Below, one piece after another: positions 1 through 42,494 of a DNA stretch of 64,000 nucleotides. Source of the stretch: Euglena gracilis (Eukaryota); the NCBI GenBank assembly GCA_039621445.1, contig CP154954.1, forward strand, positions 19,888,642 through 19,952,641, read 5' to 3'. A program made the position numbers and the translations under genes. Below the pieces are notes generated by a model. It saw nothing but the letters and a program-made list of their open reading frames with translations, ran no database searches and had not been told where the DNA came from. How positions within the stretch are numbered: position 1 is the first letter of the stretch; every line of letters starts with the position of its first letter.

Positions 1-34
<34 letters not shown>

Positions 35-53
35 GGGTGGTTGGTTTTGTGTG

Positions 54-88
<35 letters not shown>

Positions 89-243: not shown

Positions 244-277
244 TTGATTGGTTGTTGTGATTGATAGGGTTGACAGG

Positions 278-460
278 ATGGAGGGACATTGCTGCAGGGT
301 TCCCTGCTGAGGAGGCTCTGGGCACTGAAGTGCAGGCGTGGTACAACCGGCTGCCGGCAGGGTCTGCCGCCACGGACAACGTGCCGGCTGGCGAAGCGGT
401 TGGCGGCGCCGCAGCCAGTCCACCCGATGCCCAGCGACCGGATGAGGCCCTGTGGACTGA
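278..460 (+). CDS. Possible exon of an upstream gene of unknown function
   Basis: GC-rich, coding-like stretch (WRDIAAGFPAEEALGTEVQAWYNRLP) after ttgacag; no motif recognised; boundaries approximate. Confidence 0.3.
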
Positions 461-2722: not shown

Positions 2723-2818
<96 letters not shown>

Positions 2819-16836: not shown

Positions 16837-19800
16837 ACACCTCGGGCTCCGCACTTTGCCCTTGCGAGGCCATGCCTTGATCGCCGGCGGTGCTGCCTGG
16901 ATTGTTTTCTGCGTTGGGTTAGGAGTCCTTGCTTAGTGCCTTTTTTTGCCAGACCTGGCTGATTCCTAATTTGCCCTTCGACACCCAGAAGACAGGAGCA
17001 TCAAATACCACACCAATTGAGAAAAGAAGAAGACAATCAATCAATTCAAATTATCGTGCAGAACCTCAAATTAAAAGTTGCTGAATTTTTCGACAGCATT
17101 CAATGAAAGATGAAACTTCAAAGAAGCACCGCGCTGGAGAACTTCAAGCGGGAGCAGCAGCAGAAGCTGGACAACCTGACGACGCGGGTCGACTGTTGGC
17201 GAACCCTGGCTGTCCCTTCCCCAAAAGAAACTTCCCCCACAAAATTTTCAGCTCCCAAACCCCCCAAAGTGATGGCCACGGACCCTGGCAGACAGTGGTC
17301 AGAAGACCCCGCAAAGGGGCAGAAGCAACATCCACCAGAAGGCCACTACGGCCATTGGCTCCAGGGCCATGGGGGCCAACATTACACAACACACAATGCA
17401 TCCAAGCGGGGCTATGGCAGCTAAAACCGCACAGGCCATGAAGGCAGCAAAGGCCATGAAGGCACAACCGGCCATGAAGGCATCTACATCATCAAAAGTC
17501 GCTGGAACAAAGGCCAAGGGGGCCACCAGTACCAAGGCCCCACAGGACATGGCAGGTGCAGAAAAGTTCAAACACACAGACCCCATCCTTTCTCACTCAC
17601 ATCACCCCTCAGGGGTCAAGGGTGGGGCCCCAAGAACCCCTCAAGGCTTCAAACGGGCTAGGCAGCCAAACCACCTCAGGAGTAAAGGAGTAGCCACCAG
17701 AGGCCCCCCAAGACTTTCAATGCGCATGGCGTCCCAAATCAAAGAAAAGTGAATGGAGCCAAGATTGTTATCAACCAGACCAACCGTTTCAAGGCCATTG
17801 GGGCCATCAATTATCAGAAGGGGCGCAACCCCAGAAGCTAAAAGATTGTCCCCCAACAGGGGAATTGTATATACTACCCCAGTGGCAGGCCCAGGAGGAT
17901 GCCCCCCAAGGGGCAGTGGAGGACAAGGGGGTAGCCCCCCCTCAAGTTTCTTGTTCAATGCCCATGGAAGGGGCAAGTCAAAACAAGGGGGATACCCAAC
18001 AAGGGGCTACTATGGTATGTCTAATGACAACACCAATGACAAAGTGGAGGATCAGAGAGTCTGTGAGAAGAGCATGCACACCCCCCCAGCAACCCTTGCG
18101 GAATGTTCAATCCCAAGGGGCAATGTCCAACACCCCCCACCCAAGCCCCAGAAAACCACCTGATTGGGAAAATAAATCCATGGAGGAAAAATGAGGAGAC
18201 ACCCCCCTACACCAGAGGCTTCAAAAAAGTCTAAAATGGTGGTCAAAAAATGCCCCCCCCCCCAGCAAAATGTCAATTGATAAAAAATGGAATTCAACCC
18301 CCCTCGGTGAATCGCCCAAAATTGTCCACCCACCCAAAACCCAGAGCCAACCTGGACCTGAACCAAGCAGAAAAAATTCTGCTGGATTACAAAAAAACTG
18401 GGTAAGTGAAACCAGTTTGGGATTCAGAAACCCAGCATTTGATCCCATGGATTTTAATTTCAAAACCAGAGGGGGGAACAACCAAGTAAAGAATGATCAG
18501 CGACTGCAGAGAAATCAATCAGAAATTTCAAGTAAAACCTTTCAAGCTGGATCATATCCAGCACATCTTTCCAGTTTTGGAAAAAGGCCACTGGGCAGCA
18601 AAAATAGACCTCAGGGATGCCTGTTTTCATATTCCAGTAAGTTCAGGCCTAACGCCATTTTTGAGACATCAGGTGGGGGGGGGGGCAGACCTGCGGATTT
18701 CAAACAGGCTGCTTTGGGCTAAAAGTAATGCCCCAAATTTTCATGTCAGTCGTGAAAACTTTCGAAAAGCTCTGGAGGAAAAGGGGCATCCAGGTGTGTG
18801 TTTTCCTGGACGACATTTTGCTGGTGGCCCCCGCCAAAAACACTTTGCAAAAGCACCTGAACACAGTTGTCAAATATTTGCTGGATTCTGGGTTCATAAT
18901 CAATGTGAAAAAGTCCACCCTCCAGCCCGCCCAAGTAGTTACCCATCTGGGTTTTCAACTGAACTTCCAGGAAGGAAAGCTACAGGTGCCTCCTCAGAAA
19001 GTCAAAACCATCAAAAAGGAACTGGGAAAAATTGTGAATAAAGATTACGTGTCAAAAAGGCAGTTGGCTGCCATTTTGTGTCAAATAAGATGCAATCTAA
19101 TTGCCCTACCCTTTTTAAGGGCTTTTACGGACACCCTGGCAATTTTTTTGGTGGCAAAGTCCACAGCCCCCTGGGACTCAAAACATCCCATTTCTCAGGA
19201 AATCAAGGCCCAGTTAAGGGAAATAAAAATTCTGCTGGACACCTGGTGGGGAGGGGGGGGGGCAGACCCTTCCCCCAAAATGCAACCAGAGATTTGCACT
19301 TAGACAGCAGCACCAATGCCTGGGGGGGGGGCTGGACATCCACACAGGAGAACTAGTGCAGGAATTATGGAGAAAAGACTCCATTTTACACATAGATGTA
19401 AAGGAGCTCAGTGCAGCAGCTCAGTGCAGCAATCAGCACTGTGAAAAGTTTGAGCAAACCTGTGGAACAGTTTCTTTGTCTGTAGACAACCAGGTAACTT
19501 ACTATTACCTGACCGAAGGGGGGGGGGCAAAAAGGACCCTTTCAACACAATGTTAAGCCCATTTTTCAAATGGTGCATAGAGCACCAAGTAAACCTCCAA
19601 GTCAACTGGCTGCCTTCAAAAGAATGCCGGCAGACCCCATAATCAGATGAAAAACCGACAAGGGGGATTACTCCTTGGACCCCCAACTTTTTCAATGGTT
19701 AAGACAGCAATTCCAAAATTGCAGAAATTTGGAAACAGATGTATTTACCTCCCAGGCAACAATTTTGTGGCCAGATGGCCCCACTTGGATGCCACAGCCG

Positions 19801-21343
19801 TAAATGCATTACAATGTCCACTGGAAAACATGGGGGATCTTTATGCAACCCCCCCCCCTTGATCAAAAATTCAAAAAATTTTACCCAGGTCGAGAATGTT
19901 TCCCCAGACCAAAGTTTTGATGGTCACCCCCTACTGGTATTCAGCCACCTGGTGGCCCCAGTTAATAAAAATGAAAGTTCCAGGGACCCCCTCCCTTAAA
20001 ATCACCCCCACAAGGGTATGTTAACCAATTGCAGGGGGGAACAAATGCCACCCCCCAGGTGGCCCCTTCTTTGCATGATTTTTGCTCAGGCAAGCATTGG
20101 AGGAGAAACAAATTCAGGTTAAAACCATTAGCGATTTCCTGGGGAGAAACCCCAGTTTAAAACGTTATCAGAGTGCTTTTGCACTTCTGTGGGTTGGAGC
20201 AAATGGGGGTGCCCCCCCTGAAGCCACCGCAGACGATGTGGCTGACGCTTTAATACAATTATTCCAATTATTCAAGGCCCAAGCCGGTAATGCATATAGT
20301 GCAATGATTTTAATTCCTGGGTTTGGTGGGCTAAGATTTCACACCATGTTGAACCCTTACAAGAGGTTTTGGCACCAAAATCTGGAGAAGCCTCCTGGGG
20401 CTGGCCAAGGGGCCAATGCCCACTGATATTTGTACATTGCGTACACAACTTATTTTTTTATCACAAATACTGTGTTTATAAAGGTCCTCTGACTTGGCAC
20501 AAGTCAAACGTACCACCAGTGTGCTGGGAAGGGCACCCTATACAAAAAAGCGTAAACGCCAGAAGTTTTACAAGTGGGAGACGGTGGTGTCCATTCCCAA
20601 ATGTCCACAAATAAGCCCCTTTCATTTAATGATGTCTTATGTGGCTGCCACACGTTCATTCGTCAGATAGGGGGGGCCCTTCTGATTTCATTAAAACCCC
20701 TCTTCAGGGCCATAAGTGCAGACACCGTGGCTTCTATCACAAAAGACTTTTTGGCAAAAAAGGGGTACCCCCCCAAGTGTGGAGGGCACACTCCACCAGA
20801 TGATTGGTTTACTCAAAAAAATGGGCCTTTCGGCCCAAGAATTTTGTGAAATTGGCCAGGGGAAGGGGGTGGAGCTTTTACAGCCCACTATCAACGACTT
20901 AGTGCCCAAGGTGCTCTGGAAAATGCCCTGGCCCCCCTAATTTCAGTGCACAGTCCGGCCTCACAAGGGCAAAGTGCGGAGCCCGAGGTGTTTCGTACTC
21001 CTTCGAGGAAAAACGACCAAGGAGGAAGGGACACCGAGGGCGAAGCACAAATACCTTGTGAGCCCGACCCCCCCACCCGCAGAAGAAGAAATGTCTTCAA
21101 AAGCCCTCGGTCAGAAAACGGGGCCAGGGGGGGCAGAGGGGGGGGACCCCCAGGTGCAAGAAGTCACGTCGCCAGGTCGGAGCAGCATCGTCAGCCAACT
21201 CCGGCGAGTCTGCACTAAGCAGGGACTCCTAACCGAACGCAGCAAACAATCCAAACAACACCGCCGGCATGGCCTCACAAGGTCTTTGTGCTTCGCCCTC
21301 GGTGTCCCTTTCTCCCCGGTCGGTTTTCCTTGAGGGAGTACGA
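16837..21343 (+). mobile_element. DIRS1-like retrotransposon A1 (family A), full length but frameshifted
   Basis: Left ITR acacctcgggctccgcac...; RT FLDD (ORF 18728-19303), RNase H, MTase and YR remnants; ICR 20957-21064; right ITR ending gggagtacga. Confidence 0.92.
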
Positions 21344-27998: not shown

Positions 27999-30900
27999 TA
28001 TGGGTGCAATGTCCAACACCCCCAGCCCAGCCCCCGCAAAATCATCTCGTCCAGGAAATAAATTCCATGGAGGAAAAATGGGGAGACACCCCCCTCCATC
28101 AAAGTTTGCAAAAGAGCCTAAAATGTCCAACATTCCCACCCCAGCCCCCCCAAAATCATCTTATCCAGGAAAAAAATTACATGGAGGAAATATGGGGAGA
28201 AACCCTCCTTCATCAAAGGTTGCAAAAAAGCTTGACGTGGTGGCAAAAAAATGCCCCCCCCCCCCAACAACATGTCAACTCATCAGGGCTAGCATTCAGT
28301 CCCCCTGGTTAAGCCCACCAAAATTGTCCACCCACCCAAAGCCCAGAGCGAATTTGAACCTACCCCAAGCAGAAAAAATACTGCAGGATTATGAAAAATC
28401 TGGATCCGTTAAGAGGGTGAAGGAATCAACCACCCAGCACCTGATCCACTGGTTTTTGATTTCAAAACCAGAGGGGGGGGGGCAGACAAAATGGGGCTTA
28501 ATAAGCGATTGCAGGGAATTAAACCAAAGGTTCCACGTGAAAGCTTTCAAGCTGGATCACATCCAGCACATTTTTCCAGTGCTGGAAAAAGGCCACCGGG
28601 CAGCAAAAATATACCTAAAAGATGCTTACTTCCACATCCCAGTGATCCAGGCCCTAAGGCCATTTCTGAGACATCAGGTGGGGGGGCAGACCTGGGAATT
28701 CCAGGCAGGCTATTTTGACCTGAATGTAACCCCCAAATTTTCATGTCAGTAATAAAGCTGTGGAGGAAAAGGGGCATCCAGGTATTTATTAACCTGGACG
28801 ACGTTTTACTGGTGGCCAAAGCAAAACAAAATCCTACAAAATGACCTGAACACAGTGGTAAGGATTTAATCAAATCAGGATTCAAAATCAATGTAAAAAA
28901 GTCCACCCTGCAGCGCACCCAAATCGTATATCATCTTGGGTTTCAACTAAACTTCCAAGAGGGAAAATTACAGTAAAAACAGACAGAAAATAAAAACAGT
29001 AAAAAGGACGTGGGGAAAATGGTGAAAAAAGATTACATGTCAAAAAGGCAGTTGACTGCCATTTTGGGCGAAGTCAGATGCAACCTAATTTGGCCCTTTC
29101 TAAGGGCCAAATTCTCTGGAGGAAAATTCCACAGCCCCTTGGGACTCAAAACACCCCATTATCCAAAGAAAAAAGGACCAATTAAGAGAAATAAAAATCC
29201 TACTGGACTCCTGGGGGGCAGACCCTTCCCCAAATTGCAACCAGAGAGTTGCACTCAGACAGCAGTACCCATGCCTAGGGGGGGGGGGGGCTGGAAATTC
29301 GAACAGGCAAAATTGTGCAAGAATTTTGGAGGGAAAGCTCCATTTTGCACATAAATGTCAAATAATCGAGTGCAGCAGTAAGCACAGTACAAAGCCTCAG
29401 ACAGCAAAGAGAAACTGTATCCCTGTCAGTAAACAATCAAGCAATTTACTACTATTTAGCAAAAGGGGGGGTGGCACAAAAGACCCCTTCAATTACATGC
29501 TAAGACCATTTTTCAAATCGTGCATGGTACACAACATAAACCTGCAAGTAACGTGGGTCCCTTCACAGGAATGCCTAGCAGACCCCATAAGCAGGTGGGA
29601 AATTGACAGGGAGGATTTTTCCCTGGACCCCCAACTTTTTAAATGGCTGAGGCGGCAGTACAAAAATTTGATAATGCTGAAAACAGACGTTTTGCCTCAC
29701 CAGGCAACAAAACACTGCCACAATTCCTGGCCAGGTGGCGCCACTGGCAAGCCACAGCAGTGGATGCAATACAATGTCCACTGGACAACATGGGGGATCT
29801 TTATGCACCCACCTCCCTGGTCAGTTATTCAAAAATTTCTATCCACATTAAAAATGTTTCCACTGGCCAGAGTTTTGATGGTCACCCCCTACTGTGATTC
29901 AGCTGCACGGTGGCCCGAGTTGATAAAAATGAAAGTACCAGGAACCCCTGCCTGAAAATATCACCCCTTACAAGGGTATGTTCACCAAGTGCAGGGGGGG
30001 GGGGATGCCGCCCCCAGGGGGCCCCTGCGTTGCATGATTTGCTCAGGCAAATTCTGGAGGGGAAACAGATACAAAATAAAATCATTACCTATTTTCTGGG
30101 AAGAAACACCAGTTTAAAGCGTTATCAAAGTGCGTTTACGCTTTTATGGGTGATTTTGGAAAAAATGGGGGTGCCCCCCCAAAAGCCACCACTGACCAAG
30201 TGGTTGACGCTTTAATTCAACTATTTCAATTTTCAAAGGCCCAAGCACGCAATGCATACAGTGCTATGTTTTTGATCCCTGGCTTTGCTGTCCTAAGGTT
30301 CCATGCCATGTTGGCACCTTATAAAAGGCTTTGGAACCAAAATTTGGGAAAATATGGTGCATTCTGGGATCCCCTCCCAATCCTCCAGGGGCTGGCACAG
30401 TCCCCCCTGCCCTCTGAAATATGTACCTTGCGTACACAACTCATTTCCTGTTCACGAATCCTCTGTTTTTACAGAAGTTCAGATTTGGCACAGGTCCAAA
30501 GAACCACCAGTGTGTTGGGGGGGGCACCCTGCATCAAATTAAACGTAAAGGTAAAAAACTCCATAAGTGTGCACAAAAAATTAACAAGTGGGAGAGAGTT
30601 GTCTCCATTCCGCACTGCCCCCAAACCAGTCCCTTTCATTTGATTATGTCTTATGTGGCAGCAACCCGTTTCTTTGTGAAACGTGGGGTCCCCTTTTAAT
30701 TACGATAAAAAAAACCCCAAAGCTAATAAGGCAGATACCATTCCTTCTATCGCCAAAATAATTTTCGACCAAACAGGGGATACCCTCCTGGTTTGAAGAC
30801 CCCACTCCACCAGAGGGGCAGGGGTTTGTTTGCTGAAACAACTGGTACTTTTCCCCCAAGAAGTTTATGAAATTGGTCAGCGGAGGGGGTTGGAGGCTTT

Positions 30901-32276
30901 TACAGCCCATTATCAAAGACTTGGTGCCCAAGGTGCTTTGGAGAATGCCCTGGCCCCCCTTTCTTCGGTGCAGAATCCGGCCTCACAAGGGCAAAGTGCG
31001 GAGCCCGAGGTGTCTCGCACTCCCTCGAGGAAAACCGAAGAGAGAGGAAAGGACACCGAGGGCGGAGCACATAGACATTGTGAGCCCGACCCCCCCCACC
31101 CACATAAGAAAATTTGTCCTCAAACGCCCTCGGTCAGCAGAAGACGGGGGCCAGGGGGGTGGGAGAGGGCCCCCCCGGAGGAAAAATCGGACTCCCACGA
31201 CAGAGGAAGGGGGAGGAAGGGACCAAGAGGGCGAAGCACAAGAAGATGGTGAGGTCCTGCTTTCCTTGCCGGCTGTTCTGTTCTGGTGTGTTTGTGCGTG
31301 CGCGGTGGGTGCTTCTTACTGCGCCTTTGTTGCCGGAGTTGGCGATGATGAGGCCTCGTCCGACACCTTGGCGAAGTGGAACCGTCGTGGCCCCGCCCCC
31401 CCCCCCCTCACGCATGGTTGCTTGCTGGGGGCCCCCCCCTCGATGGGGATGGTGGTCTCTTTCTGATGTTTTTCCGGGTGGGTGGTTGGGGCTGCTTGGT
31501 CGGGGGTCCCCTTTCTGGTTGGGATGTTTTTCTTTTTCTGTTGATTTTTTGGGTGGGGGGGTTGGGCTCACCATCTTCTTGTGCTTCGCCCTCTTGGTCC
31601 CTTCCTCCCCCTTCCTCTGTCGTGGGAGTCCGAGACCATTCGGGCTCCGCACTGCGAGATGGTGAGGTACTGTGCACCCCCCTTTGGGCCATAATATTCT
31701 GAATTTTTGAAACGACACCAAGGCGCAAATAATGAGCTTGGAAGGCCCCAAACTTTTTCCACTGACCCAGCTGCTGGACTTCTTCCACTTGTAAACCAGC
31801 ATTTTTCCTCCATAAAACCCCAGCCCCTCTGGTGCTGTGGGGTTTCCAGTGGGTGGTGTCCACCCCCCCCCTCTTGCAGAATTTCTTTGGTAAGGGAATT
31901 CACTCTTTCTGATGTCAAAGGTCGTTTACCATCCAAAGACCATAACAAATTATTTTTGTGCCCAACCATGTGGGCTGTCCTTTCCACATACTCTTTCAAT
32001 AGGTGCCAGGGGCTGATGAGGGGGGTGTGTGGTAAATTCAAAACTTCCTCCCTTCTTGGGAATTGCCACCCTTTTCTTTGCAATAAAATGAAATTTTTTC
32101 CCCACGAAACTGATTTTTCGCTGTGTCCTGGCTAAATCAACCCCCCTGGGAGGGCCAAAAGCCTCCAACAATGGATGAGTCTGTTTCTGAGCTCTTTCAC
32201 AGAGAGTTCTGAGAGGGGTCTTGATTGTCTGATGATGTTGTTTAGAAAATCAGTGGGGTCCCAGAAATGGGCATAC

Positions 32277-33928
32277 TGTGAGCGCGGGCCAGATTTGAGA
32301 TTCATTTTTGTAAGAGATGCCAGCAGAAATTAAGTATTGCCTCACAGAGATTTGGGGGAATTAAATTTTTCACAGGCAAGCTGGAAAACAGTGTACAAGT
32401 TTGCGTGGGACTCTGAACTGGATTCAAAGTATCAAGTCTTGTCTTCTGGGGTGCTGTGTGGGGAAGTTTAGGAAGAAGACCCTTGAAGGCTGAAAAGTTG
32501 GAATTGGCCAGAAGTCTGATGTGGTGAAATTATCTGGACACACTGGACCATCCCCCAACTTGCACAAACTTGTATGAGATTTGCAGTGCAGAAAAGCCCC
32601 GTAAAAACGTACCTGTGGAGCCGGGGACTCTCAGAAGTGAAAAGGCATGGAAGTGGCAGGCCAGCTCAGCAGCAGAAGGGGGACAAGGCAGAGGAAGGCA
32701 TCAGTTGGCACACAGTGAGATGCTGTGTTTGCCACCATGATCAACTCTCCAGATCAAGCAAGCAGCAGGTGATCCTGGGGTTGGTGCTGCTGTGGATCTT
32801 GGTTGGAGCCTGGGCTGAAGGACAGACGAATGTCAATCACAGCCCGCCATCATCATCAATGATCTATCTCAATCTCCAAAATGTCTGTCAAGATGTCATT
32901 TCAGGGTCAAGTTCAATTTCAAGATTCCAAGGAATCTGTGGTGGAAGAAAGTTGTCATGTCAAGATTTCAATTTCTCAAGGTCAATCTGTGAAGGAGTTC
33001 TGTCATCATTTCCAAGATTCCAAGTTCCCAAGGTCAATCTGTGGAGGATCCAAGGTGTGATGCCCAGGATTTCAAGTTCCCAAGTTCAAGATGTCAAGTT
33101 TCAACGTCATTGGTCAAGTTCCCCCTGGAGATTTCGGCGCGAGGAGCCTGACCTCGTAAAAAACAGTGATCAGGGTTGTGCAACAGCCCTACAAATGCAC
33201 ATCTGGTGATCAACTTCAAGTTCGTCAACCTGTTGCTGCTGTGATGGCTGTGGTGTGTGCCGCCTCCCCGTTCGGTGCTGGGCCGCTTCAAGGGGGCTCT
33301 GCTCCGGTTTGGCTCGGCGGGGCTTGCCGAAGCCCCGGATGGACCCCATGGGGGGTCATGTTGTACGGGGTAGGTCGTACGACATGGCTCTCTAAGGTGG
33401 AAAGGCTGGGGTGGAGGTAGGCGGGCCCCACATGGTATTTATATGTGGATTTGGACGTGTTTACGATTATCTGTGGATTCGAAGATTTGGCAATTTAAAT
33501 TCGAGAACCGCCATTCGTCACTCTTCCATGTCGCTGCTGCGTGTGTGTGTGTGTGTGTGTGTTGAATTTTTATCTCCGGCCCGCTCATTTTTTACTTTCG
33601 TTTTGGACAATTGCCTGGCAATTGTTTTTGGGAAGGGGGGTGTGAGCGCGGGCCAGATTTGAGATTTATTTTTGTAAGAGATGCCAGCAGAAATTAAGCA
33701 TTGCCTCACAGAGATTTTGGGGAATTAAATTTTTCACAGGCAAGCCTGCAAACAGTGTACAAGTTTGCGTGGGACTCTGAACTGGATTCAAAGTATCAAG
33801 TCTTGTCTTCTGGGGTGCCGTGTGGGGAAGTTTGGGAAGAAGACCCTTGAAGGCTGAAAAGTTGGAATTGGCCAGAAGTCTGATGTGGTGAAATTATCTG
33901 GACACACTGGACCATCCCCCAACTTGCA
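32277..33928 (+). mobile_element. Non-autonomous LTR retrotransposon (TRIM-like), 288-bp LTRs at 32277-32564 and 33641-33928
   Basis: TG...CA direct repeats with about 8 differences by eye, 4-bp TSD atac, PPT gggaagggggg (33630-33640); no RT or integrase motif inside. Confidence 0.93.
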
Positions 33929-34185
33929 ATACTTGCAGACATTGGAATTCCATTTCCTTTTCAATGGAGACAAAAGAGGGGAAAACCTCAATGACCCAAA
34001 CCCTGGGAGTAATAAAACTGCTGCATATGCATTTCGTGCGGTGTTGAGGCTGTGAACAGCCAAATCAAGGATGGCCTCGGCCATCTTGTGGACTGTGCAG
34101 TCCTGCAGGGGCACCCCTTTGTGCAACAATTGGCCCACCAATGTCCTGAAGGCTGAATCATATCTCTTGACATTTCCCAGATTTT

Positions 34186-35175
34186 TTATGTAAGTGTCGA
34201 TACTGGACATCGAAACTTCCTGGGATTGTAATATTTGCCTGACACAATCAAGCAGGCCAATTTCCACCTTGGAGGGGGCATCTCCTCCCCCCAACAGTTG
34301 GTGAATAGACCCCATTGGGGGGGTACCAACAAAACGTTGCTGCCTGGCTTTCTGATTGCCATTAATTGGCGCCACCATGATGTTGAAGCCCAGTGGGGTA
34401 CGATCAACAGACAAGTCAGGTCTGGGTTTACCATTAATCTCTGAACCCATTGGGGAATGATGCTCCAGGGGGGGTTTGCATAAACTGGGGGGAGCCCCCT
34501 CAAATCTGACTTCAAGGCATCCACCAGCACAGCCCCTTGGTGGGGGTATCGACAAACAAACTTGGCGAATTTTTTGTTGCTGGGTGTGCAAAACATGTCC
34601 ACCTCTGGGGTGATGTCCTGTCTGAAAAATTTCAGAATTTGGTGAAAGATATGTAGGTTTAGGGTATAATCCCCTGGGTCCTTTTGCTCCCTGGTCAGGG
34701 AGTCTGCCAATTGCTCTTTTGTGGGAACCCAAACCACCTGCAAATTGATTTGCTTTTCTTGGCAATGATACAGCAGGGGTTTTAAAATGGAATTTAGGTG
34801 GGGCTTTTTGCCTCCCCATTTTGTTAGATAACTTACAGCCACTTGGCTGTCCACATGAAGATTTATGGTTTGTTTTGGTTTTGCCAGACTTTTTACTGTC
34901 TCCACTGCTGACATCAATTCTTTTTGGTTGATGTGAAGGATGTGCAGGTCCCTCCAAAAATCCTGCACTTTTTGGCCTGAGTTTTTGTCCAGCCCCCCCC
35001 CCACTGCCAGGTGCTGCTGTCTGAAAACAGATCCTGAGAGGCCTGGGATTGAAAGGCTCTGCCCACACCTGGCTGCAAAAACGCTTTTAACTCCACAATT
35101 TGATCTTTGACCCCCTGGGGAATGGTTAGGGTGTGGTCCCAACCCCACTTTGTGTGCAAATCCACCATTTTGCAA
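34186..35175 (-). CDS. B2 RNase H plus N6-adenine methyltransferase part of pol
   Basis: HINQKEL...VDSQ (RH); EVDMFC...VYANPPW (MTase). Confidence 0.8.
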   Translation of the reverse strand: MQNGGFAHKVGLGPHPNHSPGGQRSNCGVKSVFAARCGQSLSIPGLSGSVFRQQHLAVGGGLDKNSGQKVQDFWRDLHILHINQKELMSAVETVKSLAKPKQTINLHVDSQVAVSYLTKWGGKKPHLNSILKPLLYHCQEKQINLQVVWVPTKEQLADSLTREQKDPGDYTLNLHIFHQILKFFRQDITPEVDMFCTPSNKKFAKFVCRYPHQGAVLVDALKSDLRGLPPVYANPPWSIIPQWVQRLMVNPDLTCLLIVPHWASTSWWRQLMAIRKPGSNVLLVPPQWGLFTNCWGEEMPPPRWKLACLIVSGKYYNPRKFRCPVSTLT

Positions 35176-35260
35176 AGTTGATCTGTCAGAATTCTGAGAA
35201 ACGGCATGGAGACTAAATAGCTTCTGACCTGCCCCACAATAGAGCTGAGTTTTCTGCAGC

Positions 35261-36070
35261 TCATTTTTGTGCTGTGAGCACTTTTCCCAGCTCCTTTCTT
35301 AAGGATTTTAGTTTTTCCTGTGGGATTTCCAGCTGGCCCTTTTTCAAATTGACCCACTGGCCCAAATGTTTTATCTCCTGTGTGGGTTCCAGACAGGATT
35401 TGGGGAGGTTTAATCTGAAACCTGCCAATAAAAGGTCCTGCTTTATTTCTGCCAAATGTTGGGCTGCAGTCTTTTTGCTGGGGGCTAACAGCAAAATGTC
35501 GTCTAGGTAGATGAAAACTACCTTTCCCTCCTTTCTCCACTTCCTTTCCCAGACTCTCATGAGAGTCATAAACTTTTGTGGCAGGCTGCTGATGCCAAAA
35601 CATGCAGCTTGAAACTGCCAAGTTTCCCCCCCCCCACTTGCATGCAGACATGTTTTTCCAGGCTGCTGTGCAGTTTTAGGTGAAAATAAGCATCTTTCAG
35701 ATCTATTTTTCCACAGAACCATCCTTTTCTTAGGTATGGGAAAATGTTTCTCATGTGTTCCAGTCTGAACTTCTGGGGGGTGAAATAGTGATTTAACTGT
35801 CGACAATCTGAAATTAGTCTTTCCTTGGTCTTTTCCCCTTCTTTTTTCGAAATTATGAAGTAAGGGACAAAATGTTTTGCCTCCTCTGGGGGGATTTGCC
35901 TGGTTGCCCCTGCACATTCGTATTCTCTCAGAATTTTTTGGGCAGTCATTACTTCCTGGGGGGCTTTGAAGGGAACTTTTAAGGACATTAGAGGGGGGAG
36001 GGGAAGATCTGCCATGACCCCTTCCCTTATCAGGTTTAATACCTCTCTGCTGGCACCTGCCTTTTCCCAA
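35261..36070 (-). CDS. B2 reverse transcriptase part of pol (frameshifts at homopolymers)
   Basis: WQFQAACFGISSLP, FIYLDDILL; KIDLKDAYFH lies in the adjacent frame. Confidence 0.8.
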   Translation of the reverse strand: MGKGRCQQRGIKPDKGRGHGRSSPPPSNVLKSSLQSPPGSNDCPKNSERIRMCRGNQANPPRGGKTFCPLLHNFEKRRGKDQGKTNFRLSTVKSLFHPPEVQTGTHEKHFPIPKKRMVLWKNRSERCLFSPKTAQQPGKTCLHASGGGETWQFQAACFGISSLPQKFMTLMRVWERKWRKEGKVVFIYLDDILLLAPSKKTAAQHLAEIKQDLLLAGFRLNLPKSCLEPTQEIKHLGQWVNLKKGQLEIPQEKLKSLRKELGKVLTAQK

Positions 36071-37707
36071 TGGGGGATACTGGCCTGCAGGGCTTTGTAA
36101 GGGGGCACCCCTGGATGTAATGTGTCTGGGGATCCACAGGCCCCATCACTGGGGTCCTTCCCCCTGGCTGCCCCATCACTGGGGTCCTCTCTGGCTGCCC
36201 CATCACTGGGGTCACCTCTGGCCCTGCCATAGGGCTGCTCAAAGACAGGCTTTCCCCCTGTTTTTGAAAGATGGGGGAAGGTCTGTTTCTGCAGTGGGGA
36301 GGTACATATATAGCTGGGGGGTGTGGGCTGATTATCTTCTGGGGGGGCCCTGGTGTAGCCAATCTTGGGCCTCCCCCCCAAGGGCTGTGGTCTTGAATGC
36401 ATTGGCCTCCCATGGCCACCTGATTTTGATTGAAACGGCCTCCATTGGCCTTGATATTTTCCCTCTGGCCTCCATTGGCCTCTTGGATATAATGGCCTCC
36501 ATTGGCTTTCCCCTGAAGGGGGGGCCGCTTGCTTGGATGGGCAGCTCCTGAGGGGTTTTTGTTTGAGGGAGCTGTGGGGTAAGTTTGACATACCTTCCCC
36601 CAGTGGGATCTTCCCAGGTTGGGATACAGGCTGCCATAGCCTTGCAACTGGGCCCACTGCCCTCTTGAATGCTGGCTGCCATAGCCTTGATTCTGGGCCC
36701 CAGGCCCTGTTAAATGATGGCTGCCATAGCCTTGAGTTTGATTTGAATCCTTTGGATTTCTGATATCCCGAGAGAGGCTGCCATAGCCTTTGCTTTTTCC
36801 CCTGGAGGGGGAGGAATTGGGAAAAAGGGGTGGAGTCTGTTGGACCTGTGATGGTAGTCCCCCTCTGTCTTCTCTTCCTGACCACTGCTGTCCATGGTCC
36901 ATGGCCATCCTTTTGAGTGGGGGATCCTGAAAACTTTGAATTGCTGGGGGGTGGGGGGGTTGCGATGGCCACGGACTGACGTGCTGCTGCCGCCTCATCA
37001 CCTTCTGCAGCTGCTGCTGTGTGTCCACCTTCCCCAGCTGTTTTCTTGGAAGTTCGTTGGAGTTCTTCTTGGCAGTCTGAATTTCTTTGCAGCTCATTCT
37101 TCATGGAAGTCCAGTGTGATGCTGTCTTCTTAATTGAAATATTTCTGGGATAATTCCAGTTGAACTCGAAGAGTTGAATTCTTCCTCCTGGCAGTCGAAG
37201 GTCAGCAAAAACTTTTGATCCACCAGTTGATAATTTGCCGGTCTTCGGTGAATGTAATGCTCCTTGTAAATATTTTCCAAGTGAACTCGTAGCAGTAAAA
37301 TTCTTTCTCCTTGAGGTCGAAGGGCAGAATTAGGAATCAGCCAACTCCGGCAACAAAAAGCAGTAAGAAGCACCCCCCGCGCACGCACAAACACACCAGA
37401 ACAGAACAGCCGGCAAGGAAAGCAGGACCTCACCATCTCGCAGTGCGGAGCCCGAATGGTCAAGACAGCGCCATGGTCGCCGCGTCGGAGACAATTCAGC
37501 CAACTCGGGCGAGGCGGCATTAAGTAGCGGCCCCTAACCCAACGCAGCGACGAATCGCCCAGCACCGCCAGCGAGTAAGGCATGGCCTCGCAATGTCTTT
37601 GCGCTCCGCCCTCGATGTCACTTCCCCCCTTGTCGGTTCGCCTCGTGGGAGTGCGAGGCACCGCGGGCGAAGCGCAAGCACAAAGTGAGGCTTCATTGCC
37701 CTTCTTC

Positions 37708-40700
37708 TTAAAACCGCGAGGACGTTCCCACTGGAGCGGCGAGCCGGCCAGCTCCGGAAAATCGCACTGCCAAATCGTACTCCCTCGAGGCAAGCCGACC
37801 AGGGAGGAAGGGACACCGAGGGCGAAGCACAAAGACCTTGTGAGGCCATGCCTTGCTCGCCGGCGGTGTTGTTTGGATTGTTTGGGTGCGCTGGGTTAGG
37901 AGGTCCCGCTTAGTGCCGCCTCGCCGGAGTTGGCTGACGATGCTGCTCCGACTTGGCGACGTGGCTTCTTGTCCCTGGGGGGTGTCCCCCCCTCCCCCCC
38001 CCCTGGCCCCCACTCTCTGACCGAGGGCTTTTGAACACAAATTTTCTTTTACGGGTGGGGGGTCGGGCTCACAAGGTCTTTGTGCTTCGCCCTCGGTGTC
38101 CCTTCCTCCCTGGTCGGCTTGCCTCGAGGGAGTACGAGACACCTCGGGCTCCGCACTTTGCCCTTGTGAGGCCAGATTGTGCACTGAAATTAGGGGGTCC
38201 AGGGCATTTTCCAGGGCACCTTGGGCACCAAGTCTTTGATAACGGGCTGTAAAAGCCTCCACCCCCTTCCACTGGCCAATTTCGCAAACTTCTTGGGCAG
38301 AAAGGCCCAATTTTTTGAGTAAACCAACTCCTGCTCCTCTGGTGGAGTGGGCCCCCCACACCTGGGGGGTCACCCCATGCTTGGCCAAGAAATCTTTTGT
38401 GATAGAAGCAATGGTGTCTGCACTTATGGCCCTGAAGGGGGGTTTTAATGAAATCAGAAGGGGGCCCCCAGGTCTGACGAATAAACGTGTAGAAGCCACA
38501 TAGCACATCATTAAATGAAATGGACTTATTTGGGGACATTGGGGAATGGACACCACCCGTTCCCATTTGTGAAATTTTTGTCCTTTACGCTTAATCTTGA
38601 TGTAGGGTGCCCTACCCAAAACACTGGTGGTTCGTTTGACTTGTGCCAAATCTGAGGATCGATATAAACAGAGGATGCGTGAACAAAAAATCAGTTGTGT
38701 ACGCAATGTACAAATGTCAGTGGGCATAGGCGCCTTTGCCAGCCCCAGGAGGATTGGGAGGGGATCCCAAAATGCCCCATACTTCTCCAAGTTTTGGTTC
38801 CAAAGCCTCCTGTAGGGGGTTAACAGAGTGTGGAATCTCAGCCCACCAAACCCAGGAATCAAAAGCATTGCACTATAGGCATTACGGGCTTGGGCCTTGG
38901 AAAATTGGAATAATTGAATTAAAGCGTCAGCCACCTGGTCTGTGGTGGCTTCAGGGGGGGGCACCCCCATTTGTTCCAAAATTACCCACAGAAGTGCAAA
39001 GGCACTCTGATAACGCTTTAAACTGGGGTTTCTCCCCAGGAAATCTTCAATGGTTTTAACCTGAATTTGTTTCCCTTCCAAAATTTGCCTGAGCAAATCA
39101 TGCAAAGGAGGGGCCACCTGGGGGGTGGCATTTGTTCCCCCTTGCAATTGGTGAACATGCCCTTGTAGGGGGTGATTTTCAGGCAGGGGGTCCCTGGAAC
39201 TTTCATTTTTATTAATTGGGGCCACCAGGTGGCTGAATCCCAGTAGGGGGTGACCATCAAAACTTTGGTCTGGGGAAACATTTTCAACCTGGGTAAAATT
39301 TTTTGAATTATTGACCAGGGGGGGTTTGCATAAAGATCCCCCATGCTGTCCTGTGGACATTGTAATGCATTTACTGCTGTGGCTTCCCAGTGGGGCCACC
39401 TGGCCACAAATTTGGGCAGTTTTTTGTTCCCTGGGGAGGCAAATAAATCTGTTTCCAGGTTTATGAAATCTTTGAACTGTTGTCTCAACCATTGAAAAAG
39501 TTGGGGGTCTAAAGAATAATCCCCCCTGTCCATTTCCCACCTGCTGATGGGGTCTGCTAGGCATTCCTTTGAAGGCACCCAGTTGACTTGGAGGTTTACT
39601 TGGTGCTCCATGCACCACTTGAAAAATGGTCTTAGCATTTTGTTGAAGGGGTCCTTTCTGCCCCCACCTTTTGTTAGGTAAAAATAAATTACCTGGTTGT
39701 CCACTGACAAGGAAACGGTTTCTCCAGATTTGCTCAAACTTTTCACAGTGTTTATTGCTGCACTGAGCTCCTTTACATTGATGTGCAAAATGGAGTCTTT
39801 TCTCCAAAATTCCTGCACAATTTCTCCTGTGTGGATGTCTAGCCCCCCCCAGGCATGGGTGCTGCTGTCTGAGTGCAACATTCTGGTTGCATTTTGGGGG
39901 AAGGGTCTGCCCCCCCAGGTGTCCAGCAGAATTTTTATTTCCCTTAATTGGGCTTTGATTTCCTGGGAAATGGGGTGTTTTGAGTCCCAGGGGGCTGTGG
40001 ACTTTGCCACCAGAAAATTTGCCAGGGTGTCTGTAAAAGCCCTTAGAAAGGGCAGGGCCATTAGATTGCATCTTATTTGGCCCAGAATGGCAGCCAACTG
40101 CCTTTTTGACATGTAATCTTTTTTCACGATTTTTCCCAGCTCCTTTTTTATGGTTTTGACTTTCTGGGGGGGCACCTGTAGCTTTCCTTCCTGGAAGTTT
40201 AGTTGAAAACCCAGATGGGTTACCACTTGGGTGGGCTGGAGGGTGGACTTTTTTATATTGATTTTGAACCCAGAATCCAGCAAATCTTTGACAACTCTGT
40301 CCAGGTGATTTTGCAATGTGTTTTGGGTGGGGGCCACCAGCAAAATGTCGTCCAGGTAAATATACACCTGGATGCCCCTTTTTCTCCACAGCTTTTCGAA
40401 CGTTTTCATCACCGACATGAAGATTTGGGGCATTATATTTAGCCCAAAGCAGCCTGTTTGAAATTCCCAGGTCTGCCCCCCCACCTGATGCCTTAAAAAT
40501 GGCTTTAGGCCTGGACTTACTGGAATATGAAAATAGGCATCCTTTAGGTCTATTTTGGCTGCCCAGTGGCCTTTTTCCAAAACTGGAAAAATGTGCTGGA
40601 TGTGATCCAGCCTGAAAGGTTTTACTTGAAACTGCTGATTTATTTCTCTGCAGTCGCTGATCATTCTCCACTTGGTTGTTCCCCCTTCTGGTTTTGAAAT

Positions 40701-42084
40701 TAAAAACCATGGGATCAAATGTTGGGTTTTTGAATCCCAAACCCGTTTCACTGCCCCAGTTTTTTCGTAATCCAGTAGGATTTTTTCTGCCTGGTTCAGG
40801 TCCAGATTGGCTCTGGGTTTTGGGTGGGTGGACAATTTTGGGGGATTTACCCAGGGGGGTTGAATTCCATTTTTGATCAGTTGACATGTTGCTGGGGTGG
40901 CATTTTTTGACCACCATTTTAGACTTTTCTGAAGTCTCTGGTACAGGGGGGTGTCTCCCCATTTTTCCTCCATGGAATTTATTTTCCCAATTAGATGATT
41001 TTTGGGTTGCTGGGTGGGGGGTGTTGGACATTGCACCCCTGGTGCCACTAGGGATTGAGCATTCTCTGAAGGTGGCTGGGGGGGTGTGCATGCTTTGCTC
41101 ACAGACTCTCTGATCCTCCACTTTGTCATTGGCGTTGTCGATTGACATACCATAGGGGCCCCATCTTGGGTCTCCCCCTTGTTTTGGTTTGCCCCTGCCA
41201 TGGGCATTGATAAAGAATATTGAGGGGGGGTTGCCCCCTTGTCCTCTATTGCCCCTTTGGGGGCATCCTCCTGGGGCTGCCACCGTACATTGAAACCCCC
41301 TGCTGGGGGACAGCCTTTTAGCTTCTGGGGTTTTTCCCCTTCTGATAATTGATGGCCCCAGTGGCCTTGAATTTGTTGTCGATGGTGTTGAGCCCAATAA
41401 GAATGACAATGGCCCCAGTGGCCTTGATGATAATTTTGGGCCCACTGGCCTTCTTGATGTCCCCATTGACTTCTCTTTGATCTTGGGCGCCATGCCCATT
41501 GAAAATCTTGGGGGGCCTCTGGGGGCCAATCCTTTTCCCCTGATGGGGTTTGTGATGATGAAGAAATGATTGGGGGGGTGTTGGACCTGCCCTGCCTGCC
41601 CCTGCTGGGCATTTGTTTTGTGGAATCGGCCACCCTGGCCTTGGTAATGTTGGCCACCCTGGCCTTTGTTCCATCGGCCACCATGGCCTTTGCTGTTTTG
41701 GCCGCCATGGCCCAGCTTGCTGTTTTGGCCTCCATGGCCCAGCTTGAACAAGGTATTGGTGTAACTGCGATTTGGGCCTCCATGGCCCTTGCCGTTGTGG
41801 CTTGACAGCTGCCTTGGCTTTGGTGTCCTTGGGTTTTTCTGACCACTGTCTGCCAATTTCTGTGGCTGTCCTGGGTGGGTTTTCAGAAATTTTTTCTGGT
41901 GTGGAGGGACAGCCACTGATCGCCACGGTTGCACCGCGCCGTCAGGTCGGCCAGCTGTGGCTGCAGCCAGTTCTTGGTTCAGCGACGCCTTTGTGTTGAC
42001 AATTGCATTTCTCATTGAAGTCTTGAATATGTCAACTTTGGCTTTGGCCTGGCAAGGGGGAGGTATTGGGTGGTTTTTTTCCAT
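37708..42084 (-). CDS. A2 long ORF (1458 aa): gag-like N-terminus, linker overlapping pol, tyrosine recombinase C-terminus
   Basis: YR catalytic set LYRSSDL, IKRKG, HSTR, GQW, ARYQ; the stop lies outside the element. Confidence 0.88.
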   Translation of the reverse strand: MEKNHPIPPPCQAKAKVDIFKTSMRNAIVNTKASLNQELAAATAGRPDGAVQPWRSVAVPPHQKKFLKTHPGQPQKLADSGQKNPRTPKPRQLSSHNGKGHGGPNRSYTNTLFKLGHGGQNSKLGHGGQNSKGHGGRWNKGQGGQHYQGQGGRFHKTNAQQGQAGQVQHPPNHFFIITNPIRGKGLAPRGPPRFSMGMAPKIKEKSMGTSRRPVGPKLSSRPLGPLSFLLGSTPSTTNSRPLGPSIIRRGKTPEAKRLSPSRGFQCTVAAPGGCPQRGNRGQGGNPPSIFFINAHGRGKPKQGGDPRWGPYGMSIDNANDKVEDQRVCEQSMHTPPATFRECSIPSGTRGAMSNTPHPATQKSSNWENKFHGGKMGRHPPVPETSEKSKMVVKKCHPSNMSTDQKWNSTPLGKSPKIVHPPKTQSQSGPEPGRKNPTGLRKNWGSETGLGFKNPTFDPMVFNFKTRRGNNQVENDQRLQRNKSAVSSKTFQAGSHPAHFSSFGKRPLGSQNRPKGCLFSYSSKSRPKAIFKASGGGADLGISNRLLWAKYNAPNLHVGDENVRKAVEKKGHPGVYLPGRHFAGGPHPKHIAKSPGQSCQRFAGFWVQNQYKKVHPPAHPSGNPSGFSTKLPGRKATGAPPESQNHKKGAGKNREKRLHVKKAVGCHSGPNKMQSNGPALSKGFYRHPGKFSGGKVHSPLGLKTPHFPGNQSPIKGNKNSAGHLGGQTLPPKCNQNVALRQQHPCLGGARHPHRRNCAGILEKRLHFAHQCKGAQCSNKHCEKFEQIWRNRFLVSGQPGNLFLPNKRWGQKGPLQQNAKTIFQVVHGAPSKPPSQLGAFKGMPSRPHQQVGNGQGGLFFRPPTFSMVETTVQRFHKPGNRFICLPREQKTAQICGQVAPLGSHSSKCITMSTGQHGGSLCKPPLVNNSKNFTQVENVSPDQSFDGHPLLGFSHLVAPINKNESSRDPLPENHPLQGHVHQLQGGTNATPQVAPPLHDLLRQILEGKQIQVKTIEDFLGRNPSLKRYQSAFALLWVILEQMGVPPPEATTDQVADALIQLFQFSKAQARNAYSAMLLIPGFGGLRFHTLLTPYRRLWNQNLEKYGAFWDPLPILLGLAKAPMPTDICTLRTQLIFCSRILCLYRSSDLAQVKRTTSVLGRAPYIKIKRKGQKFHKWERVVSIPQCPQISPFHLMMCYVASTRLFVRPGGPLLISLKPPFRAISADTIASITKDFLAKHGVTPQVWGAHSTRGAGVGLLKKLGLSAQEVCEIGQWKGVEAFTARYQRLGAQGALENALDPLISVHNLASQGQSAEPEVSRTPSRQADQGGRDTEGEAQRPCEPDPPPVKENLCSKALGQRVGARGGGGGDTPQGQEATSPSRSSIVSQLRRGGTKRDLLTQRTQTIQTTPPASKAWPHKVFVLRPRCPFLPGRLASREYDLAVRFSGAGRLAAPVGTSSRF

Positions 42085-42494
42085 GCCACCTTGCCTTGTC
42101 TGCTTTTTTGCCTGTTTTTGACGTTTTTCTGTGGCTCAGGACTTTTTCTAGCCTTCGCCACGGCAACCCGTTCGCAGCTTGTGGCACCAGTTCTTGTTGT
42201 TCAGCGAGGCTCTCTTCGTGTTGACAATTGCATTTCTCATTGAAGTTTGACATGTCCATTGTCACGAGTGTCACCTTCCGGATAATTCGATTGGTTCAAT
42301 TCTTTGAAATTCAATAAGCAGCTTCTTTGAATTGAAGTTCCTTTCTTCTGGGTTGTCGCAGGGCAAATTAAGAATCAGCCAACTCCGGCGAAAAAAGGCA
42401 CAAGTCAAACGAACCACCAGTGTTTTGGGTAGGGCACCCTACATCAAGATCAAGGCATGGCCTCACAAGGGCAAAGTGCGGAGCCCGAGGTGTC
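37775..42494 (-). mobile_element. DIRS1-like retrotransposon A2 (family A), 4720 bp, intact ORFs
   Basis: Left ITR 42375-42494, ICR 38066-38173 (complementary to both element ends), right ITR 37775-37937; no TSD seen. Confidence 0.96.
39018..41846 (-). CDS. A2 pol (942 aa): reverse transcriptase, RNase H, DNA N6-adenine methyltransferase
   Basis: KIDLKDAYFH, CFGL, YLDD; HSDSS..AWGG, HINVKEL, VDNQ; DLFAS...YANPPW. Confidence 0.95.
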   Translation of the reverse strand: MVRKTQGHQSQGSCQATTARAMEAQIAVTPIPCSSWAMEAKTASWAMAAKTAKAMVADGTKARVANITKARVADSTKQMPSRGRQGRSNTPPIISSSSQTPSGEKDWPPEAPQDFQWAWRPRSKRSQWGHQEGQWAQNYHQGHWGHCHSYWAQHHRQQIQGHWGHQLSEGEKPQKLKGCPPAGGFNVRWQPQEDAPKGAIEDKGATPPQYSLSMPMAGANQNKGETQDGAPMVCQSTTPMTKWRIRESVSKACTPPQPPSENAQSLVAPGVQCPTPPTQQPKNHLIGKINSMEEKWGDTPLYQRLQKSLKWWSKNATPATCQLIKNGIQPPWVNPPKLSTHPKPRANLDLNQAEKILLDYEKTGAVKRVWDSKTQHLIPWFLISKPEGGTTKWRMISDCREINQQFQVKPFRLDHIQHIFPVLEKGHWAAKIDLKDAYFHIPVSPGLKPFLRHQVGGQTWEFQTGCFGLNIMPQIFMSVMKTFEKLWRKRGIQVYIYLDDILLVAPTQNTLQNHLDRVVKDLLDSGFKINIKKSTLQPTQVVTHLGFQLNFQEGKLQVPPQKVKTIKKELGKIVKKDYMSKRQLAAILGQIRCNLMALPFLRAFTDTLANFLVAKSTAPWDSKHPISQEIKAQLREIKILLDTWGGRPFPQNATRMLHSDSSTHAWGGLDIHTGEIVQEFWRKDSILHINVKELSAAINTVKSLSKSGETVSLSVDNQVIYFYLTKGGGRKDPFNKMLRPFFKWCMEHQVNLQVNWVPSKECLADPISRWEMDRGDYSLDPQLFQWLRQQFKDFINLETDLFASPGNKKLPKFVARWPHWEATAVNALQCPQDSMGDLYANPPWSIIQKILPRLKMFPQTKVLMVTPYWDSATWWPQLIKMKVPGTPCLKITPYKGMFTNCKGEQMPPPRWPLLCMICSGKFWKGNKFRLKPLKISWGETPV

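What the first reader, a model, noticed from the sequence alone, without database searches (positions are those of the whole stretch)
32277..32574. LTR element with no tRNA primer site but a candidate self-priming site
Seen: the 5' LTR is followed not by TGG but by caaacttgta (32565-32574), the exact complement of tacaagtttg inside the LTR (32394-32403), which lies ~25-35 nt after an AT-rich aattaaattttt box. Known: Tf1/sushi-type Ty3/gypsy elements prime reverse transcription with the first ~11 nt of their own transcript. Inference: a self-priming non-autonomous LTR element in a euglenid-like host, here with a 4-bp TSD.
Basis: partly seen in the sequence, partly recalled or inferred. Interest (0 to 1): 0.75.

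Follow-up and report, generated by a model that had tools for sequence, protein, structure and literature searches.

The report
Small LTR retroelement, likely self-priming
This is a real, multi-copy, 1.65-kb non-coding LTR retroelement that lacks the usual tRNA primer site and instead carries a 10-base match to its own LTR, so it probably primes its own reverse transcription as the yeast element Tf1 does, though this could not be tested on other copies.

Summary
Window 32277-33928 is a complete LTR element:
- two 288-bp LTRs, 280 of 288 bases identical, with TG..CA ends
- an 11-nt polypurine tract touching the 3' LTR
- a 4-bp target duplication, ATAC.

Contigs of four public runs contain the uninterrupted target, missing exactly 1656 bp. 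That proves the insertion and the duplication. The 1076-bp interior has no recognisable coding capacity, and the family is multi-copy.

The first 10 nt after the 5' LTR (32565-32574) are the exact complement of 32394-32403. The first TGG lies 52 nt downstream. A match this long at that position arose in 66 of 100000 dinucleotide shuffles. In-window mock sites, which are rich in inverted repeats, gave about 1%.

Tf1-like self-priming is therefore the best reading (about 0.55), but it remains an inference. I could not test:
- the transcript start
- conservation or covariation among copies
- the autonomous partner
- host tRNAs
- the "euglenid" host.

No whole genome is held, and six collection scans and one protein search found no other copy.

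Self-priming is already predicted for fungal, vertebrate, moss and plant elements, so this is at most a new member of a known kind. Interest is modest.

The parts
32273..32276 (+). 5' copy of the 4-bp target-site duplication (ATAC)
   Evidence: The empty-site joint 32272->33929 skips 1656 bases in all 4 runs laid.
32277..32564 (+). 5' LTR, 288 bp, TG..CA
   Evidence: 97% identical to 33641-33928.
32359..32370 (+). AT-rich box AATTAAATTTTT, a candidate core promoter (contains ATTAAA, so it could also be a poly(A) signal)
   Evidence: Read directly. The family majority has C at the position equivalent to 33728. Its function is inferred only.
32394..32403 (+). Candidate self-primer TACAAGTTTG, proposed start of R
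   Evidence: Exact reverse complement of 32565-32574. It is paired with that site in the MFE and centroid folds. The transcript start was not tested.
32565..32574 (+). Primer-binding site CAAACTTGTA, directly after the LTR. It does not start with TGG. Pairing can extend by two G-U pairs to 32576.
32575..33629 (+). Non-coding interior. It holds a diverged ~90-nt internal repeat (32913-32994 / 33006-33098) and a (TG)n run near 33541-33562.
   Evidence: No Pfam family at E<=1 in 10 of 11 ORFs; one hit of E 0.17, far below its cut-off.
33630..33640 (+). Polypurine tract GGGAAGGGGGG, the plus-strand primer site
   Evidence: Read; it abuts the 3' LTR.
33641..33928 (+). 3' LTR, 288 bp, with the second copy of the 10-mer at 33758-33767
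33929..33932 (+). 3' copy of the target-site duplication (ATAC)

Best explanation
A non-autonomous (TRIM-like) LTR retroelement of a multi-copy family, inserted into a DIRS-like retroelement. It most likely starts reverse transcription by self-priming, as follows. A stretch of its own RNA from the LTR (UACAAGUUUG, 32394-32403, at or near the 5' end of the transcript) folds back over R-U5 (about 160 nt). It anneals to the 10-nt site that directly follows the LTR. The partner element's RNase H then cuts it off, and its 3' G is extended into U5. The strong-stop cDNA moves to the 3' R, which must therefore reach beyond 33767. The polypurine tract at 33630-33640 primes the plus strand. Reverse transcriptase, RNase H and integrase come in trans from an unidentified autonomous element. 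Shown: the anatomy, the insertion, the copy number and the complementarity. Inferred: the transcript start, the cleavage and the use of the duplex as primer.
For: (1) Bona fide LTR-element anatomy and a proven insertion with a 4-bp duplication. (2) No TGG within 52 nt of the LTR end. (3) An exact 10-nt complement that starts at the very first base after the LTR: 66 of 100000 shuffles at offset 0; duplex energy reached by 6 of 3000 shuffles. (4) Within the whole 1652-bp element, the LTR site is the best duplex partner of the first 20 nt after the LTR: -14.1 kcal/mol in the 5' LTR and -16.8 in the 3' LTR, next best -12.3. (5) The duplex is kept in both the MFE and the centroid folds of 32394-32600 and of 32360-32640. 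(6) The geometry fits known self-primers: the primer lies inside the LTR, 24-35 nt after an AT-rich box and 161 nt upstream of the site. [quoted passage not shown] An element without a TGG site is therefore more often a predicted self-primer than anything else. (8) None of the 40 best-supported sequence differences among the contigs laid falls in either 10-mer or in 33758-33767. This is weak, because 150 further rows were not shown.
Against: No copy other than this one could be read, so neither conservation nor covariation of the two sites was tested. The transcript start is unknown. Laid contigs cannot show starts, and the runs labelled RNA are only guessed to be RNA. Under the in-window control the match is only about 1 in 100 (192 of 20487; 149 of 9095). 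The whole R-U5 fold is no more stable than shuffles: z -1.31 with 18 of 200 shuffles as good, and z -0.58 with 54 of 200. The AT-rich box is altered in most copies (33728 A>C) and could be a poly(A) signal, which would place the 10-mer near the R/U5 border and not at the start of R. Host tRNAs could not be compared: 0 tRNA genes in the window and no genome held. The 4-bp duplication differs from the 5 bp I recall for Tf1.
Confidence: 0.55

Rival explanations
1. The site after the LTR binds a host RNA: a tRNA half, an internal tRNA fragment or another abundant small RNA ending in ...CAAGUUUG. The match inside the LTR is then a coincidence.
For: Half-tRNA primer sites exist in Ty1/copia lineages (PMC6317226 passage). 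The in-window control shows that matches of 10 nt or more occur at about 1% of mock sites. Host tRNAs could not be checked.
Against: No TGG, so no full-length tRNA 3' end. If the 10-mer is read as the end of a 5' tRNA half cut after a UUG anticodon, position 32 would be G, where tRNAs carry a pyrimidine (general tRNA architecture, my own knowledge; not a tool result). The distant TGGAGCCGGGGACTC at 32616 is 52 nt from the LTR, and as a tRNA end it would lack the conserved C61 (same basis). Rfam found no RNA-family similarity in 32200-34000 that approaches a gathering score (11 matches at E 0.44-9.5).
Confidence: 0.2
2. The complementarity is real and selected, but it serves as an RNA structure: a long-range R/U5-leader stem that presents the primer site, or that aids packaging or dimerisation. 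It is not the primer itself, and the true primer is unknown.
For: The duplex closes a multibranch R-U5 fold in both the MFE and the centroid structures. Long-range 5'-leader pairings are known in retroviruses and Ty1 (my own knowledge).
Against: The duplex starts exactly at the first base after the LTR, where a primer's 3' end must sit (offset 0). No alternative primer site is visible. The overall fold is not unusually stable.
Confidence: 0.1
3. Pure chance in a decayed element, with no function.
For: The LTRs differ at 8 of 288 positions, so this copy is not brand new. Only one copy was seen in full.
Against: 66 of 100000 shuffles. The family is multi-copy, and the other contigs are close to this copy (X1 laid 9778 contigs on the stretch with its flanks; the private changes of this copy are few).
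Confidence: 0.15

Closest known systems
Tf1 / Tf2 (S. pombe), Tj1 (S. japonicus) and the Tf1/sushi group of Ty3/gypsy chromoviruses (Maggy, Skippy, Cft-1, Boty, sushi)
   Same: No tRNA-type primer site. The site directly after the 5' LTR is complementary to a short stretch inside the LTR that is taken to be the 5' end of the mRNA (passages in PMC4600332, PMC6934838 and PMC6317226).
   Different: This element has no gag-pol, so its lineage cannot be placed. The match is 10 nt, against the 11 nt I recall for Tf1. The duplication is 4 bp, against a recalled 5 bp. The host is an unidentified eukaryote, not a fungus or vertebrate as far as can be told. The transcript start and the cleavage are untested.
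Plant lineages with predicted self-priming: Tcn1 (moss and club-moss chromoviruses) and TAR (Ty1/copia: Houba, Osr-1)
   Same: Self-priming is inferred from sequence alone, by the same criterion used here (PMC6317226 passages).
   Different: Those are autonomous elements placed by RT/RH/INT trees. Here there is no protein to place.
TRIMs (terminal-repeat retrotransposons in miniature)
   Same: A small non-coding LTR element with a primer site at the start of the interior and a polypurine tract at its end, mobilised in trans (definition in a PMC6934838 passage).
   Different: It is 1652 bp with 288-bp repeats, larger than the definition quoted there (<1000 bp, repeats of 100-250 bp). The primer site is not complementary to a tRNA.
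Dictyostelid Skipper elements
   Same: A protist LTR element that lacks the TGG signature (PMC5006619 passage).
   Different: Skipper has a polypyrimidine stretch and no complementary region in the left LTR. This element does have one.

Membership tests
LTR retrotransposon (integrase-type) | Two long direct terminal repeats ending TG..CA | tested here: met
   288-bp repeats, 97% identical, TG..CA.
LTR retrotransposon (integrase-type) | Short target-site duplication, with an empty site elsewhere | tested here: met
   ATAC on both sides. The empty-site joint skips 1656 bases in 4 of 4 runs laid.
LTR retrotransposon (integrase-type) | Polypurine tract directly upstream of the 3' LTR | tested here: met
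   GGGAAGGGGGG at 33630-33640.
LTR retrotransposon (integrase-type) | gag-pol coding capacity (autonomy) | tested here: not met
   The interior is 1076 bp. No Pfam family at E<=1 in 10 of 11 ORFs; one hit of E 0.17. The element is therefore non-autonomous.
Self-priming LTR elements (Tf1-type mechanism) | No tRNA-type (TGG...) primer site next to the 5' LTR | tested here: met
   The first TGG is 52 nt downstream.
Self-priming LTR elements (Tf1-type mechanism) | The site directly after the LTR is complementary to a stretch inside the 5' LTR | tested here: met
   10 of 10 nt at offset 0. 66 of 100000 shuffles; 192 of 20487 in-window mock sites.
Self-priming LTR elements (Tf1-type mechanism) | The complementary stretch is the 5' end of the element's mRNA | not testable with these tools
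   Only contigs could be laid, and they cannot show starts.
Self-priming LTR elements (Tf1-type mechanism) | Complementarity kept (covaries) among copies of the family | not testable with these tools
   No genome. No second copy in the window. 0 hits in six collection scans. No protein candidate. One search lists 40 of 190 variant rows, none of them in the sites.
Tf1/sushi clade of Ty3/gypsy chromoviruses | RT/RH/INT (and chromodomain) that branch within the clade | not testable with these tools
   The element has no coding sequence and no autonomous partner was found. No rve/integrase Pfam hit in the 160 window ORFs scanned.
TRIM | Under 1000 bp, terminal repeats of 100-250 bp, primer site complementary to a tRNA (as quoted in PMC6934838) | tested here: not met
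   1652 bp, 288-bp repeats, a non-tRNA site. It is TRIM-like in design only.

The most novel reading that the evidence does not exclude
A recently active, multi-copy family of self-priming LTR retroelements in a protist lineage (possibly a euglenid) outside the fungi, vertebrates and plants where self-priming is known. Its miniature non-coding members carry the whole priming device (primer plus site) in cis. If the host trans-splices its mRNAs, as euglenids do, the element would also have to protect its own 5' end from leader addition for the primer to exist.
Probability: 0.4. Interest if true: 0.45.

Novelty: new member of a known kind. Interest (0 to 1): 0.3.

Why it matters
If it is confirmed on other copies and by transcript mapping, self-primed reverse transcription would extend to another deep eukaryotic lineage and to a non-autonomous element. 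That bears on whether the mechanism is ancient, arose repeatedly or spread horizontally with Tf1/sushi-like elements. It would also give annotators of a very repeat-rich genome a second criterion, besides tRNA matching, for recognising intact LTR elements. It does not open a new kind of mechanism.

Tried and rejected
**Searches that found nothing**
- Whole-genome search for copies: no genome is held.
- Other copies in the window: none. blastn with word size 9 and E<=0.01 returned only self hits, the LTR-LTR hit and one internal repeat.
- Collection scans with three LTR patterns chosen outside the two 10-mers: 0 matches each in viral contigs, metagenome contigs and prokaryote genome contigs.
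- Protein route to other copies, through the 75-aa minus-strand ORF that covers the primer site: no candidate.
- Earlier findings of this scan: nothing for this sequence or genome. Word look-ups returned only unrelated items.
- Rfam: nothing at gathering score in the window. In 32200-34000 there were only 11 chance-level matches at E 0.44-9.5.

**Other repeats in the window**
- The two shorter repeat pairs, 43302/45939 and 46359/48265, were aligned. They show no LTR-element anatomy.
- The pair of 3-kb repeats 10 kb apart (18.2-21.1 kb and 28.1-31.1 kb) was not examined for LTR anatomy. I read it as two copies of a DIRS-like element.
- There was therefore no second LTR family from which to learn the host's primer usage.

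**Readings considered and rejected**
- A MITE with 10-bp inverted ends. One end lies inside the LTR and is present in both LTRs, while the other lies outside the LTR, so a later insertion cannot explain it.
- A wrongly set LTR border. The empty-site joint fixes it.
- Run X17 record 18 joins 33588-33718 to 32355-32625, an interior-LTR-interior layout. That could be a tandem array or a 1-LTR circle, but it is also the expected de Bruijn path through a collapsed LTR, so I give it no weight.

**Run evidence given no weight**
Nothing is concluded from it.
- The lack of cover over 32305-32385 in runs X15 and X19 is not evidence for a transcript start. Contigs that contain U3 were placed on the 3' LTR, and these runs are only guessed to be RNA.

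**Host identity**
- Not established. An Atlas look-up of the flanking ORF gave eukaryotic DIRS-like RNase H/Dam clusters of mixed phyla.

Full report
**What is there**

Window 32277-33928 is a complete small LTR element.
- Two 288-bp direct repeats lie at 32277-32564 and 33641-33928. They are 97% identical; blastn gives 97.2% over 288, i.e. 8 differences.
- The repeats begin TG and end CA.
- The four bases ATAC stand directly before the first repeat (32273-32276) and directly after the second (33929-33932).
- An 11-nt purine run, GGGAAGGGGGG (33630-33640), abuts the 3' repeat.
- The interior is 1076 bp. Of 11 ORFs of 52 aa or more scanned, none matched a Pfam family at a meaningful level; the single hit had E 0.17, far below its cut-off. 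The element cannot encode its own proteins.

**Independent proof of the insertion**

I laid contigs of four public runs (coded X1, X15, X17, X19) on 31900-34300.
- All four contain a joined form that runs from 32272 straight to 33929 and skips exactly 1656 bases. That is the element (1652) plus one copy of ATAC. It was seen in 8, 1, 2 and 1 contigs respectively.
- The flanking sequence is itself a very abundant repeat, so these are other, uninterrupted copies of the target. They fix the LTR borders and the 4-bp duplication.
- Contigs also leave the LTR end into unrelated sequence: loose ends at 32565, 33928 and 33929 in X15 and X19. X1 laid 9778 contigs at 80-100% likeness on the stretch, flanks included. 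The element is therefore multi-copy with different insertion sites.

**The feature in question**

- The 5' LTR is followed at once by CAAACTTGTA (32565-32574), not by TGG. The first TGG is 52 nt away, at 32616.
- That 10-mer is the exact reverse complement of TACAAGTTTG at 32394-32403 inside the LTR. The 10-mer is present again at 33758-33767 in the 3' LTR. Two G-U pairs could extend the duplex to 12.
- The AT-rich box AATTAAATTTTT is at 32359-32370, 24 to 35 nt upstream of 32394.

**Is it chance?**

| Control | Result |
|---|---|
| Dinucleotide shuffles of the LTR, exact complement of 10 nt or more starting at the first base after the LTR | 66 of 100000 |
| Same, offsets 0-3 | 106 of 100000 |
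| Same, offsets 0-3 | 27 of 20000 |
| Duplex energy of the first 12 nt against the LTR: -12.7 kcal/mol against -7.05 +/- 1.39 for shuffles | reached by 6 of 3000 shuffles |
| Every mock position of the window, with its preceding 288 nt as a mock LTR, offset 0 | 192 of 20487 |
| Same, offsets 0-3 | 149 of 9095 |

The mock-position control is the harshest and gives about 1%. The window is packed with inverted repeats, which inflates it. There is only one LTR element in the window, so this is essentially a single test. The match is real evidence but not overwhelming.

**Folding**

- RNA 32394-32600 folds so that the 10-mer pairs with the site and closes a three-stem R-U5 domain, in both the MFE and the centroid structure.
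- The same duplex appears when 34 nt are added upstream and 40 nt downstream.
- The folds as a whole are no more stable than shuffles: z -1.31 with 18 of 200 shuffles as good, and z -0.58 with 54 of 200. The structure adds consistency but not proof.
- Across the whole element, the LTR site is the best duplex partner of the first 20 nt after the LTR: -14.1 and -16.8 kcal/mol, next best -12.3.

**Most likely mechanism**

The anatomy matches what is described for self-priming elements. A 5' segment of the element's own mRNA, from the left LTR, loops back to the region just downstream of the LTR and primes reverse transcription after being cut off (passages read in PMC5006619 and PMC4600332).

On that model:
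- U3 is about 32277-32393.
- R starts at or just before 32394.
- The primer is cut after 32403.
- Its 3' G is extended through U5.
- The strong-stop cDNA transfers to the 3' R. The poly(A) site must therefore lie beyond 33767.
- The polypurine tract primes the plus strand.
- The enzymes come from an unseen autonomous partner.

The start need not be exactly 32394. Any start at or upstream of it would work, provided RNase H cuts after the duplex.

I put this reading at about 0.55.

**What I could not test, and why**

- No whole genome is held.
- The window has no tRNA gene and no second copy.
- Six scans of public collections with three LTR patterns gave 0 matches.
- A search for translated copies of the LTR found no candidate.
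- The laid runs are contigs and cannot show RNA starts. Their variant table shows only 40 of 190 rows. None of the 40 lies in either 10-mer, which is only weak support for conservation.

**Points against the reading**

- In nearly all the depth of run X1, the AT-rich box reads C at the position equivalent to 33728 (30 contigs). The family's box is therefore AATTACATTTTT.
- In this copy the box contains ATTAAA. From my own knowledge, that is a common poly(A)-signal variant. If it acts as one, the 10-mer would sit near the R/U5 border and not at the start of R.
- PMC3601003 (passages) stresses that U3/R/U5 borders cannot be set without RNA data, and that one AT-rich motif can serve both roles.

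**Rivals**

- A host tRNA half or other small RNA as primer, with the LTR match a coincidence (0.2). This could not be excluded. It is disfavoured by tRNA architecture: reading the 10-mer as a 5' half ending in a UUG anticodon puts G at position 32 (my own knowledge).
- A structural long-range stem that is not the primer itself (0.1).
- Pure chance in a decayed copy (0.15).

**Comparison with what is known**

- Self-priming is established for Tf1 and inferred for Tf2, Tj1, Maggy, Skippy, Cft-1, Boty, Grasshopper, Afut1 and vertebrate sushi elements (PMC6934838 and PMC4600332 passages).
- In plants it is inferred for the Tcn1 chromoviruses of mosses and for the TAR lineage of Ty1/copia, and was predicted for 12% of the plant elements surveyed (PMC6317226 passages).
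- The present element works like these. It cannot be filed in the Tf1/sushi clade, because that clade is defined by protein trees and this element has no proteins.
- It is TRIM-like in design but exceeds the quoted TRIM size limits and lacks a tRNA site.

**Host**

- The flank is a DIRS-like element with reverse transcriptase, RNase H and Dam-methylase signatures.
- A 2026 preprint reports Dam-bearing DIRS and LTR elements in Euglena gracilis, among many other eukaryotes (passages). The E. gracilis assembly paper reports 22-33% LTR content (passages).
- This is compatible with a euglenid host but does not identify one.
- Three full-text searches combining Euglena with LTR retrotransposon, primer binding site or Ty3 found 19, 1 and 1 papers. 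Judged from titles and abstract starts, and from passages of two of them, none looks like a description of primer-site types of euglenid LTR elements.

**Verdict**

- If the reading is right, this is a new member of a known kind.
- Interest is 0.3.

Noticed in passing
window 31100-37330, minus strand (interrupted at 32277-33928): The LTR element sits inside a DIRS-like retroelement. RVT_1 is found in 35264-36145 (E 8e-10). Weak RNase H and Dam-methylase matches lie in 34189-35298 (E 0.0095 and 0.00065, below Pfam cut-offs), backed by Atlas look-alikes that carry RT_RNaseH and Dam. In the laid runs this flank has about 5 times the summed contig depth of the LTR element.
   Followed up: partly
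window 18167-21074 and 28054-31096, plus strand: Two copies of a ~3-kb repeat, 74-88% identical and 10 kb apart. The first contains an RVT_1 fragment (18665-19300, E 4e-14). They are probably further copies of a DIRS-like element, so the window is a nest of retroelements.
   Followed up: no
window 37711-42135 and 39021-41882, minus strand: A 1475-aa open frame with no Pfam match overlaps, in another frame, a 954-aa open frame with a full RVT_1 domain (E 1e-22). Two long overlapping open frames are unusual. Biased composition or a frameshifted retroelement may explain them.
   Followed up: no
window 32558-32564 and 33931-33937: The last 7 bases of the LTR (ACTTGCA) recur 2 bases after the 3' LTR in the native target (ATACTTGCAG). 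The sequence after the 5' LTR (CAAACTTGTA) also resembles the LTR end (CCAACTTGCA). This may be chance, or a hint of target preference or microhomology.
   Followed up: no
window 33588-33718 joined to 32355-32625 (run X17, record 18): One 436-nt contig has the order interior end - full LTR - interior start. A tandem array or a 1-LTR circle would give this, but so would an assembly path through collapsed LTRs.
   Followed up: no
window 1-300, 1270-1420, 2650-3090, 3840-4090: Long arrays of a short (about 8-14 nt) degenerate repeat, seen as 32 and 52 overlapping copies of the repeat families D1 and D2.
   Followed up: no
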